In this document: positions 57,978 through 59,051 of the stretch, one piece after another | Numbering within the stretch: position 1 is the stretch's first letter | How the letters are laid out: each line of letters starts with the position of its first letter | Sequence record: PV646497.1 | Reading direction: 5' to 3' (one strand) | DNA: 64,000 nt | Source: Enterococcus phage CUB-FS | Translations under genes and position numbers: made by a program | The notes under the pieces: generated by a model | What the model was told of the DNA's origin: nothing | The model's database searches: none | Seen by the model: the letters and a program-made list of their open reading frames with translations, nothing else

Positions 57978-59051
57978 ATGGCATACGTAACAAATATTGA
58001 TGTAGTAGCAGATGGGTTAGATTTATATAATGGGAACTATGTGGTGGAACGAGGTCAAGTAGTTACTTTTAAACTACATGTAGCGACATGGAACAATGAG
58101 CCTACACCCGAAAATGCTTATGCGATTATTCGTAATAATGGGGTAGACTATAAGAGTAAAGTTGATGAATTTGGTAATGCAGAGGTTACCTTCCCAGTCA
58201 ATGGTCGTCCTGACCAAGTGACAACTAGCATCTTTGCATTAACTTCTGGATATGAGGGGGATATGCCTCGTGTAATGTCAGCTATCTTTAGTGACGAAAC
58301 AGAAATTAAACAAACTGTAATGAACGTTACAGCATCTATTAATGGGGAGCCAGTTAGTCGTGAAGGTGTATTTTTAGAACGAGACCAAGTAGTCACTGTA
58401 GATGTTAAAGCAACATTATCTACAGGTAAGTTCTGGGAAGGTGCACAGGTAGGTGTGTACAATAACAACACGGAATACTTAGGTGACCTAGACGCAGATG
58501 GTTATGGTTCAGTAACTTTCCAAGTAAAAGGAAAACAAGGGATGGACACATCAGCTATCTACGTATTCGTTAAAGACCATGAACGAGAAGCTACACTAAC
58601 AGTTCCTGTGAAGTTTACTAATACTACTGTTACTACAGAAACTTCTACAGAAGAATCGTCTACTGTTGATATGACTACAGGAACAGAGGAGTCTTCTACT
58701 ACGGATACAACAACTGTAGAAAGCTCTACAACGGATTCTACGTCTTCTACAGTAAATTCTACAGAAAGTACAGTAGAAAGCTCTACAGAGCAAACAGTGA
58801 CCAATGAAGACACTTCTACTGATTCAGGAGTAGTTGAAACTACAGAAACTTCCCAAGTAGCAGGCTACACAGAGTCTACTTCTAGTTCTACAGAGTCTAA
58901 AGAAGTTAAGGAAACTCATACTAGCACTACAGAACCTGCTAAAGAGTTGCCATCTACAGGCACAGAGGTAGACTATGGACTTGTTGGGTTCGGTGGTGTG
59001 GCATTAACAGTTGTAGTGGCACTAGTAGTTAAAAAATTGTTGAATAAGTAA
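57978..59051 (+). CDS. Protein with Ser/Thr-rich stalk and C-terminal LPXTG cell-wall sorting signal
   Basis: C-terminus: LPSTG + GTEVDYGLVGFGGVALTVVVALVV + KKLLNK. Upstream is a ~100 aa ESSTT-rich low-complexity region. The N-terminal domain is beta-rich. No obvious N-terminal signal peptide. Confidence 0.55.
   Translation: MAYVTNIDVVADGLDLYNGNYVVERGQVVTFKLHVATWNNEPTPENAYAIIRNNGVDYKSKVDEFGNAEVTFPVNGRPDQVTTSIFALTSGYEGDMPRVMSAIFSDETEIKQTVMNVTASINGEPVSREGVFLERDQVVTVDVKATLSTGKFWEGAQVGVYNNNTEYLGDLDADGYGSVTFQVKGKQGMDTSAIYVFVKDHEREATLTVPVKFTNTTVTTETSTEESSTVDMTTGTEESSTTDTTTVESSTTDSTSSTVNSTESTVESSTEQTVTNEDTSTDSGVVETTETSQVAGYTESTSSSTESKEVKETHTSTTEPAKELPSTGTEVDYGLVGFGGVALTVVVALVVKKLLNK

What the first reader, a model, noticed from the sequence alone, without database searches (positions are those of the whole stretch)
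57978..59051. Phage gene ending in a canonical LPXTG sortase sorting signal after a Ser/Thr-rich stalk
The C-terminal 35 residues are LPSTG, then a 20-residue hydrophobic segment, then KKLLNK. This is the tripartite cell-wall sorting signal of Gram-positive surface proteins. It follows a ~100-residue ESSTT/TESS low-complexity stalk and beta-rich N-terminal domains. Virulent phages rarely encode sortase substrates. Candidate roles are superinfection exclusion, lysis inhibition or host-surface remodelling. There is no recognisable N-terminal Sec signal peptide, which is odd for a sortase substrate.
Basis: seen in the sequence. Interest (0 to 1): 0.7.

Follow-up and report, generated by a model that had tools for sequence, protein, structure and literature searches.

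The report
Phage sortase-signal protein lacking export signal
A virulent Enterococcus phage carries a well-conserved gene for a protein with a complete "staple me to the cell wall" tail but no export signal to get it out of the cell, unlike all its relatives in other phages; how, or whether, it reaches the wall is unknown.

Summary
ORF 57978-59051 (+) encodes 357 aa: two Ig-like beta-sandwich domains, a ~107-aa acidic Ser/Thr stalk, then LPSTG, a hydrophobic segment and KKLLNK. There is no signal peptide and no possible N-terminal extension.

The window is an EF24C-like Kochikohdavirus, and the gene is EF24C ORF092 (PHROG 26080). Several GenBank records already call it an LPXTG anchor protein, so the motif is not new.

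New findings:
- It is an autonomous unit with its own sigma-70-type promoter/leader cassette and a covarying terminator.
- The gene is under purifying selection. L, P, T and G are invariant despite synonymous codon changes, and stalk length is held at 108-111 aa.
- Its only sequence relatives are other phage proteins, from Efquatrovirus-like Enterococcus siphoviruses and a Lactococcus-type phage. These have the same Ig domain, stalk and LPXTG, plus a classical signal peptide.
- Unrelated LPXTG-type proteins in Listeria P35, LP-114 and Lactococcus PMBT69 also have signal peptides.

So sortase-signal proteins recur in virulent Firmicute phages, and this one is the outlier. My best guess, with low-to-moderate confidence, is that it is still a sortase substrate that meets sortase only after holin or lysis breaches the membrane. 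A cytoplasmic-face membrane tether is the main rival. No experiment exists.

The parts
57895..57972 (+). Promoter/leader/RBS cassette, a 78-nt repeat
   Evidence: 92% identical to 56473-56550 and ~84% identical to 59107-59168. It abuts the start codon.
57915..57943 (+). Sigma-70-type promoter-like site, TTGACA-17-TAAACT
   Evidence: 10 of 12 consensus matches. The extended pattern TTGACA-N17-TAAACTAAGTT occurs 3 times in the window against 0.07 expected. It is conserved upstream of all orthologues.
57963..57970 (+). Ribosome-binding site GAGGAGAG, 7-9 nt before the ATG
   Evidence: Sequence; invariant in the orthologues.
57978..59051 (+). CDS of 357 aa (EF24C ORF092 orthologue, PHROG 26080)
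   Evidence: A single in-frame piece covers residues 1-333 in 36 of 37 GenBank relatives.
57978..58298 (+). Ig-like beta-sandwich domain 1 (aa 1-107)
   Evidence: AF2 pLDDT 77-95. Homologous to the single Ig domain of the signal-peptide-bearing phage relatives (hhalign 97.9%, E 3.8e-13). dN/dS 0.03-0.31.
58311..58625 (+). Ig-like beta-sandwich domain 2 (aa 112-216)
   Evidence: AF2 pLDDT 70-87. 26% identical to domain 1. dN/dS 0.02-0.14.
58626..58946 (+). Acidic Ser/Thr-rich disordered stalk (aa 217-323)
   Evidence: Composition; pLDDT <50; dN/dS 0.42-0.67. Length is held at 108-111 aa in 8 orthologues despite indels. No DNA tandem repeat.
58947..58961 (+). LPSTG sortase recognition motif (aa 324-328)
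   Evidence: L, P, T and G are invariant while their codons vary synonymously; X is S or A. Only 5 of 36 flanking columns are invariant.
58980..59030 (+). Hydrophobic segment LVGFGGVALTVVVALVV (aa 335-351)
   Evidence: The only segment with 19-residue hydropathy above 1.4.
59031..59048 (+). Basic tail KKLLNK (aa 352-357)
   Evidence: KK..NK is invariant in all orthologues.
59063..59108 (+). Intrinsic terminator: 12-bp stem followed by a T-run
   Evidence: Consensus -21.3 kcal/mol; 3 pairs show compensatory double changes and none is broken in 6 sequences.
59120..59148 (+). Next copy of the same promoter type, starting the downstream operon
   Evidence: It bounds the LPXTG gene as a monocistronic unit.

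Best explanation
The gene encodes a phage accessory protein aimed at the Enterococcus cell envelope. Two Ig-like binding domains sit on a wall-spanning-type Ser/Thr stalk that ends in a sortase A sorting signal. It descends from a phage-borne family of ordinary Sec-exported, sortase-anchored surface proteins. In the Kochikohdavirus lineage the signal-peptide-coding 5' end is gone. A host-type (sigma-A-like) promoter/leader/RBS cassette now abuts the first residue of the Ig domain, so the protein is made in the cytoplasm and cannot use the Sec route. LPXTG, stalk length and the hydrophobic/basic tail are all still held by selection, so I infer that sortase recognition still matters. The most plausible route is that the protein meets the extracytoplasmic sortase only when the phage holin or lysis breaches the membrane, which is how a signal-less endolysin reaches the wall. 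It would then be attached to, or retained on, wall material of the lysing cell or of neighbouring cells. There its Ig-like domains would coat or bind surface structures, for example masking receptors on debris or mediating adhesion. Shown: the anatomy, the absence of any export signal, the autonomous transcription-unit structure, purifying selection including on LPXTG, and homology to signal-peptide-bearing phage proteins. Inferred: early/host-RNAP expression, sortase processing, the lysis-gated route, and the biological role.
For: A complete sorting signal passes the Pfam cut-off. L, P, T and G are invariant in 4 lineages at dS 0.5-1.1 with synonymous codon changes, while only 5 of 36 flanking columns are invariant. 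dN/dS is 0.13-0.31 for the sorting signal and 0.02-0.31 for the Ig domains. Stalk length is 108-111 aa in 8 orthologues despite compensating indels. The homologues P0009, P0011, P0012 and P0020 have signal peptide + the same Ig domain + stalk + LPK/ETG, and they are phage-encoded in non-structural positions behind consensus promoters. No export signal or N-terminal extension exists. The charge bias around the hydrophobic segment (acidic N-flank, +3 tail) disfavours tail-anchor insertion under the positive-inside rule (established knowledge). Endogenous sortase A can process LPXTG substrates supplied from outside the cell in S. aureus (PMC3929722, PMC4723074, PMC9026250, found). The gene is retained, in frame through LPSTG, in 36 of 37 GenBank relatives, with conserved synteny, promoter and terminator.
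Against: There are no experimental data of any kind for this protein family. No precedent is known to me for a sortase substrate delivered through holin lesions or after lysis. The exogenous substrates shown to work are small peptides, not a 38-kDa protein with a hydrophobic tail. A sigma-A-type, early-looking promoter is not what one would naively expect for a protein needed only at lysis. Conservation of LPXTG rests on only about 4 independent lineages. The hydrophobic tail alone could explain part of the constraint on the C-terminus.
Confidence: 0.35

Rival explanations
1. Intracellular membrane tether. Without a signal peptide, the C-terminal hydrophobic segment simply anchors or associates the protein with the cytoplasmic face of the membrane (tail-anchored-like). 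The Ig-like domains then act inside the infected cell on a membrane-proximal host or phage target, and LPXTG is an inherited feature no longer used by sortase.
For: There is no signal peptide and a single hydrophobic segment within 23 residues of the C-terminus. The signal-less state is old and stable: all lineages share it at dS about 1. Expression from a host-type promoter among small early-type genes fits a takeover function. Bacterial tail-anchored proteins exist (established knowledge).
Against: L, P, T and G are kept through synonymous change while the flanks drift, which this model does not explain. A ~109-aa wall-spanning-type Ser/Thr stalk is maintained in length. The charge bias (acidic N-flank, KKLLNK tail) is opposite to what N-in/C-out insertion prefers. 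The homologous domain works outside the cell in all relatives.
Confidence: 0.25
2. The protein is displayed early on the surface of the still-intact infected cell by a cryptic, non-Sec/non-Tat export route. Sortase A anchors it, and it acts as a superinfection-exclusion or surface-remodelling factor.
For: A sorting signal under selection. An early-type autonomous promoter. Signal-peptide-bearing relatives that would behave exactly this way. By analogy, early-expressed, envelope-anchored exclusion proteins such as T5 Llp and TP-J34 Ltp (established knowledge).
Against: Nothing resembling an n-, h- or c-region, a Tat motif, a lipobox or an internal signal-anchor is present, and no extension is possible. 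No known route moves about 320 residues of folded Ig domains and acidic stalk across an intact membrane without a signal. No phage-encoded export helper was identified nearby.
Confidence: 0.15
3. Virion-associated Ig-like decoration protein, comparable to Hoc or Big_2-bearing tail proteins, with the C-terminal motif irrelevant.
For: Tandem Ig-like folds are common on phage particles. Foldseek/BFVD matches include tail and Big-1 proteins, at about 10-18% identity.
Against: The gene lies far from the structural module, among small non-structural genes, behind a host-type promoter and its own terminator. Its relatives are also outside structural modules. A hydrophobic, basic C-terminus and a 109-aa acidic stalk are atypical for capsid or tail decoration. 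There are no Big_2 or other virion-domain hits in Pfam.
Confidence: 0.07
4. Decaying remnant of a captured surface-protein gene that lost its 5' end and is on its way out.
For: The loss of the signal peptide looks like a truncation at a repeated promoter cassette.
Against: Whole-gene dN/dS is 0.16-0.31 at dS up to about 0.9, and Ig domains go as low as 0.02. The ORF is intact in the sequenced orthologues and in frame through residue 333 in 36 of 37 GenBank relatives. Promoter, RBS and terminator are conserved, with compensatory changes in the terminator stem.
Confidence: 0.03

Closest known systems
Sortase A substrates of Gram-positive bacteria (LPXTG cell-wall-anchored proteins; Pfam PF00746, TIGR01167; Enterococcus examples include the EF0750/EF2685 family, NF053819)
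   Same: An LPXTG pentapeptide, a hydrophobic segment and a basic tail. A Ser/Thr-rich acidic wall-spanning-type stalk. Ig-like passenger domains. The C-terminal ~80 residues weakly resemble NF053819 (E 1.3e-4, 22 bits, below the cut-off of 47).
   Different: It has no N-terminal Sec signal peptide, which is a defining requirement of the pathway. It is encoded by a virulent phage. The passenger domain has no cellular homologue detectable by sequence beyond generic Ig repeats.
Signal-peptide-bearing phage homologues (P0009, P0012, P0020 in Efquatrovirus-like Enterococcus siphoviruses; P0011 in a Lactococcus/Enterococcus-type phage)
   Same: A homologous Ig domain (hhalign 97.9%), followed by stalk, LPXTG, hydrophobic segment and basic tail. 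A non-structural genome position. A consensus sigma-70-type promoter directly upstream.
   Different: They carry a classical cleavable signal peptide and a single Ig domain. The window protein starts about 13 residues after the equivalent signal-peptidase site and has a second Ig domain.
Other LPXTG-type proteins of virulent Firmicute phages (Listeria P35 gp23; Listeria LP-114 gp059 and its P70/LP-037 equivalents; Lactococcus PMBT69 XEX76709), and the prophage-borne SasX/SesI of staphylococci (SasX/SesI from established knowledge)
   Same: Phage-encoded proteins ending in a sortase-type sorting signal, all of unknown or colonisation-related function.
   Different: Apart from the sorting signal, these sequences showed no obvious resemblance to the window protein; I did not compare their passenger parts formally. 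All three proteins I read have signal peptides. SasX/SesI sit on temperate elements.
Holin-dependent release of signal-less endolysins (canonical holin-endolysin lysis)
   Same: A phage protein that acts on the wall, lacks a signal peptide and would reach the extracytoplasmic side only through holin lesions. This is the route I infer here.
   Different: There is no enzymatic domain, no sequence relationship, and the gene is not located in the lysis cassette. The route is purely inferred for this protein.
Early-expressed envelope-anchored exclusion or receptor-masking proteins (T5 Llp, S. thermophilus TP-J34 Ltp, lactococcal Sie2009)
   Same: Small autonomous phage accessory genes whose products are anchored in the envelope and modify the susceptibility of the cell or its debris to phage.
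   Different: Those are lipoproteins or membrane proteins with export signals. No homology was found (no Pfam or PHROG link). The function here is untested.
Bacterial tail-anchored membrane proteins
   Same: No signal peptide and a single hydrophobic segment at the extreme C-terminus.
   Different: The flanking charge distribution favours C-in, not C-out. The LPXTG motif and the wall-type stalk have no role in that class.

Membership tests
Sortase A substrate (LPXTG cell-wall-anchored protein) | LPXTG pentapeptide near the C-terminus | tested here: met
   LPSTG at aa 324-328; LP[S/A]TG in all orthologues.
Sortase A substrate (LPXTG cell-wall-anchored protein) | Hydrophobic segment followed by a positively charged tail | tested here: met
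   aa 335-351 is hydrophobic (15-residue hydropathy 2.49) and KKLLNK forms the tail.
Sortase A substrate (LPXTG cell-wall-anchored protein) | Match to curated anchor models above their cut-offs | tested here: inconclusive
   Pfam PF00746 scores 22.7 bits against a gathering cut-off of 20. TIGR01167 was not reported at E<=0.01 for this protein, although it was for P0009, P0011 and P0012.
Sortase A substrate (LPXTG cell-wall-anchored protein) | N-terminal Sec signal peptide allowing export before sorting | tested here: not met
   N-terminal net charge is -1 and maximum hydropathy 0.79, with no h-region. There is an in-frame stop 27 nt upstream. The same N-terminus occurs in all orthologues.
Sortase A substrate (LPXTG cell-wall-anchored protein) | Cleavage between T and G and amide linkage to the peptidoglycan cross-bridge by the host sortase | not testable with these tools
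   Needs fractionation and mass spectrometry in E. faecalis with and without srtA.
Phage LPXTG Ig-domain family (PHROG 26080 plus P0009, P0011, P0012, P0020) | Homologous N-terminal Ig-like domain | tested here: met
   phmmer E 2.4e-5 to 9e-4 against 1.8 billion proteins. PHROG HMM E 3.5e-9 and 9e-8. hhalign 97.9%, E 3.8e-13.
Phage LPXTG Ig-domain family (PHROG 26080 plus P0009, P0011, P0012, P0020) | Architecture of signal peptide, Ig domain, stalk and sorting signal | tested here: not met
   Stalk and sorting signal are shared, but the signal peptide is absent and a second Ig domain is present.
Moron-like autonomous accessory gene | Own promoter and own terminator flanking a single non-essential-looking gene | tested here: met
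   Promoter-like site at 57915-57943 and terminator at 59063-59091, both conserved, the terminator with covariation. Transcription itself was not measured.
Tail-anchored membrane protein | No signal peptide and a single transmembrane segment within about 30 residues of the C-terminus | tested here: met
Tail-anchored membrane protein | N-in/C-out topology | not testable with these tools
   The charge bias (acidic N-flank, +3 C-tail) argues against it by the positive-inside rule, but topology needs experiment.
Virion Ig-like decoration protein (Hoc/Big_2 type) | Encoded in the structural module and/or carrying Big_2, I-set or FN3 Pfam domains | tested here: not met
   No such Pfam hit. The gene lies in a block of small non-structural genes downstream of the replication module.
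Virion Ig-like decoration protein (Hoc/Big_2 type) | Presence in purified virions | not testable with these tools
   No virion proteome covering ORF092 was found.
Superinfection-exclusion lipoproteins and membrane proteins (Llp, Ltp, Sie2009) | Sequence or profile similarity, or a lipobox/signal peptide | tested here: not met
   No Pfam or PHROG link to those families. No lipobox or signal peptide.

The most novel reading that the evidence does not exclude
A lysis-gated sortase substrate. The phage deliberately makes a sorting-signal protein without an export signal and stockpiles it in the cytoplasm. When holin or lysis breaches the membrane, host sortase A, from the dying cell's envelope or from neighbouring live cells, staples it onto peptidoglycan. 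This coats wall debris or bystander cells with phage Ig-like domains, for example to mask receptors on debris so that progeny are not wasted, or to tag or aggregate the next hosts. It would be a new way for a virus to use a host surface-anchoring enzyme in trans.
Probability: 0.18. Interest if true: 0.8.

Novelty: new variant of a known kind. Interest (0 to 1): 0.5.

Why it matters
Kochikohdaviruses (EF24C, EFLK1 and relatives) are leading candidates for phage therapy against E. faecalis and VRE, yet this conserved gene has never been studied.

If the protein is attached to enterococcal walls, it changes the surface of infected, lysed or neighbouring cells. That bears on phage adsorption, superinfection, biofilm and mucus behaviour, and immunogenicity of therapeutic lysates.

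More generally, sortase-signal proteins turn out to be a recurrent, uncharacterised class of accessory genes in virulent Firmicute phages. The signal-less member offers a clean natural experiment. Either a sortase substrate can be delivered without Sec, which would be a new route, or a complete sorting signal has been put to another use.

Tried and rejected
- **Profile search with the mixed domain alignment A2.** It returned nothing, not even the family itself, so I treat it as a technical null. The search for related loci with A2 failed for lack of conserved stretches.
- **IMG/VR.** It holds only EFLK1 for this protein and nothing for P0009.
- **AFDB50 fold library.** Unavailable.
- **Weak Pfam hits bMG3, CBM30 and DDHD.** All are below cut-off and were ignored.
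- **Cysteine exclusion as a marker of extracellular adaptation.** 0 Cys, but P is about 0.09-0.24 given 0.66% Cys in the window's other ORFs, so it is not informative.
- **Tandem DNA repeats in the stalk.** None.
- **N-terminal extension, alternative start or upstream exon.** Rejected.
- **Paralogue of the Ig domains elsewhere in the window.** None.
- **Origin of the passenger domain from a host chromosomal gene.** Not supported. Only phage proteins and one generic archaeal/bacterial-type Ig-repeat protein (P0010) reach E<1e-3 in 1.8 billion representatives.
- **Pseudogene or relic.** Rejected by dN/dS.
- **Literature.** No paper discussing this protein's function, and no virion proteome or transcriptome for the genus, in the searchable library.
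Full report
**1. What is there.**
The window is an EF24C-like Enterococcus myovirus (Herelleviridae, Brockvirinae, Kochikohdavirus). The 5 kb around the finding is 95-99% identical to 36 GenBank phage genomes.

It is the orthologue of EF24C ORF092 and makes up PHROG 26080, "unknown function".

Residues 217-323 form an acidic Ser/Thr stalk: 33% T, 22% S, 16% E, net charge -19. The C-terminus is LPSTG (324-328), then TEVDYG, then a 17-residue hydrophobic segment, then KKLLNK. It passes the Pfam Gram_pos_anchor gathering score, 22.7 against 20 bits.

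The protein has no signal peptide. N-terminal net charge is -1 and maximum hydropathy is 0.79, with no other hydrophobic segment. It cannot be extended upstream: an in-frame stop lies 27 nt before the ATG, all frames are closed in the intergenic region, and a strong ribosome-binding site sits 9 nt upstream.

**2. Already annotated.**
EFLK1, EF1TV, phage 156 and vB_EfaH_149 already name this gene an "LPXTG-motif cell wall anchor domain protein". The motif is therefore not a discovery. I found no paper that discusses the gene, and no transcriptome or virion proteome covering it.

**3. Transcription unit.**
Immediately upstream lies TTGACA-17-TAAACT (57915-57943). It sits inside a 78-nt promoter/leader/RBS cassette (57895-57972).

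- The cassette is 92% identical to the one in front of the Xre-HTH operon at 56473-56550, and about 84% identical to the one at 59107-59168.
- The extended pattern occurs 3 times in the window against 0.07 expected.
- Downstream is a 12-bp hairpin with a T-run (59063-59108). Its stem shows three compensatory double changes and no broken pair across six orthologues.
- Promoter, RBS and ATG are conserved in the divergent orthologues.

The gene is therefore a conserved monocistronic, moron-like unit. By analogy with SPO1-type phages, consensus sigma-A-type promoters mark early, host-RNAP genes. A phage sigma factor gene lies upstream in the window according to the EF1TV annotation. The timing is inference, not measurement.

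**4. A working gene with a selected motif.**
I compared orthologue DNA from metagenomic contigs and GenBank (L001, L006, L007, L008, L010, L012).

| Region | dN/dS |
|---|---|
| Ig domain 1 | 0.03-0.31 |
| Ig domain 2 | 0.02-0.14 |
| Stalk | 0.42-0.67 |
| Sorting signal | 0.13-0.31 |

These values hold at dS of 0.5-1.1.

The Leu, Pro, Thr and Gly codons of the motif differ synonymously between lineages (TTG/TTA/CTA, CCA/CCG/CCT, ACA/ACT, GGC/GGT). The residues are invariant, and only X changes (S to A). In the 36 flanking non-membrane columns, only 5 are invariant.

Stalk length stays at 108-111 residues in eight orthologues despite several indels. The ORF is in frame from residue 1 through 333 in 36 of 37 GenBank relatives. 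The remainder is masked by the low-complexity filter. A decaying relic is excluded.

**5. Relatives.**
A word-indexed search of 5.8 billion proteins found only close orthologues, at 76-100% identity. Exhaustive HMMER over 1.8 billion representatives added P0009, P0011 and P0012 at E 2e-5 to 9e-4, plus a generic Ig-repeat protein. A follow-up search added P0020.

These four relatives are textbook sortase substrates. Each has a cleavable signal peptide (for example MKK...VHA|G), one Ig domain that starts "YVGNIDV" (the window protein starts "MAYVTNIDV"), a stalk, LPKTG or LPETG, a hydrophobic segment and a basic tail. Profile-profile comparison confirms homology. The result is 97.9%, E 3.8e-13. 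Window residues 2-110 align with P0009 residues 46-153, about 13 residues after its signal-peptidase site.

All of them are phage-encoded.

- P0009, P0012 and P0020 sit at the end of a rightward operon. A glutaredoxin gene follows, and the operon converges on an XhlA-holin-Amidase_2 lysis cassette in Efquatrovirus-like Enterococcus siphoviruses. Dit is about 50% identical to phiSHEF2/Max and the endolysin about 60% identical to E. hirae/E. faecium phages.
- P0011 lies among small genes after a Mom-like gene that is 75% identical to Lactococcus phage PMBT69.

Each has a consensus TTGACA-17-TATACT promoter directly upstream. Among cultured phages, the domain occurs only in the 37 Kochikohdavirus records.

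**6. Other virulent phages.**
Probing GenBank phages with a sorting signal turned up unrelated annotated LPXTG-type proteins:

- Listeria P35 gp23 (LPPTG), which lies between the holin and endolysin genes;
- Listeria LP-114 gp059 (LAKTG), with matching hits in P70 and LP-037;
- Lactococcus PMBT69 (LPETG).

The three I translated (P35 gp23, LP-114 gp059 and the PMBT69 protein) all have classical signal peptides. Phage-borne sortase-signal proteins are thus a recurring, unstudied accessory class in virulent Firmicute phages. The Kochikohdavirus protein is the only one seen here without an export signal.

**7. Interpretation.**
The simplest history is that an ancestral phage gene for a Sec-exported, sortase-anchored Ig-domain protein lost its signal-peptide-coding 5' end. 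The repeated promoter/leader cassette came to abut the domain boundary, and a second Ig domain was gained. This is inference.

The paradox is that features useful only outside the membrane are still under selection, while canonical export is impossible. These features are the LPXTG motif, a stalk of wall-spanning type and length, and a hydrophobic segment with a basic tail.

The charge distribution around the hydrophobic segment, with an acidic N-flank and a +3 tail, also disfavours tail-anchor insertion under the positive-inside rule.

My preferred reading (confidence about 0.35) is that the protein still depends on sortase but reaches it only when the holin or lysis breaches the membrane, as a signal-less endolysin does. 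It would end up on wall material of the lysing cell or on neighbouring cells. Endogenous sortase A can incorporate LPXTG substrates offered from outside in S. aureus (PMC3929722, PMC4723074, PMC9026250).

The rivals are:

- an intracellular membrane tether in which LPXTG is vestigial (0.25);
- a virion decoration protein (0.07);
- a relic (0.03).

None can be settled without experiment. The decisive test is fractionation and C-terminal mass spectrometry in infected E. faecalis with and without srtA.

**8. Verdict.**
The motif is already annotated, but four things are new:

- the loss of the signal peptide relative to all homologues and analogues;
- selection on the motif;
- the autonomous transcription unit;
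- a wider class of sortase-signal proteins in virulent phages.

I rate it a new variant of a known kind, of moderate interest (0.5).

Noticed in passing
window 56473-56550, 57895-57972, 59107-59168: A ~60-78-nt promoter/leader/RBS cassette (TTGACA-N17-TAAACTAAGTTyATAAGATAAAGrAGG) is repeated three times within 2.7 kb, each copy heading a transcription unit of small unknown genes. It looks like a mobile or recombining regulatory module. It may explain the second match per genome record seen, but I did not check that.
   Followed up: partly
window 38607-38863 (+): Group I catalytic intron (Rfam RF00028, 72.8 bits, E 1.4e-16, full-length model). The host gene was not examined.
   Followed up: no
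window 35044-35140 (+): Match to the 'drum' sRNA family (RF02958, 52.8 bits against a gathering score of 43). It lies between the two annotated pieces of the DNA polymerase I gene. GC skew turns negative at 36-38 kb, which suggests an inserted element.
   Followed up: no
window ~19.4-21.9 kb and ~32.3-36.3 kb (mapped from the EF1TV annotation): The relative's annotation gives a helicase interrupted by an intein/homing endonuclease and a DNA polymerase I split into two CDSs about 1.2 kb apart.
   Followed up: no
window 57108-57896 (+): The gene directly upstream encodes a 262-aa protein with an HEAIH (HExxH) motif and a C-terminal Cys-rich zinc-ribbon-like segment. It has only a weak SprT-like Pfam hit (E 0.025) and belongs to PHROG 9897, unknown function. 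It is conserved in synteny with the LPXTG gene in all orthologous loci.
   Followed up: partly
window 56555-56806 (+): An Xre-type HTH regulator (Pfam HTH_3, E 3.4e-11) is the first gene behind the first copy of the promoter cassette in this strictly virulent phage. Several records annotate it as 'repressor'.
   Followed up: no
window 59786-60079 (+): A 97-aa protein with two or three hydrophobic segments (PHROG 22240, unknown function) lies three genes downstream of the LPXTG gene. It may be a small membrane protein. No link to export could be established.
   Followed up: no
L002 370-1413, L003 114-1317, L015 4788-5849: In the siphovirus relatives the signal-peptide-bearing LPXTG gene is always followed immediately by a 74-aa glutaredoxin gene. 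The pair converges on the XhlA-holin-Amidase_2 lysis cassette.
   Followed up: partly
L016 (Listeria phage P35) 1922-2695: P35 gp23, a signal peptide + Pro/Glu-rich stalk + LPPTG protein, lies between the holin and endolysin genes of this virulent phage.
   Followed up: partly
L002 305-331: The -35 element of the promoter in front of P0012 is embedded in a 9-bp inverted repeat (CAAAGAGTTgacaatctcAACTCTTTG). This could be an operator or the terminator of the preceding gene.
   Followed up: no
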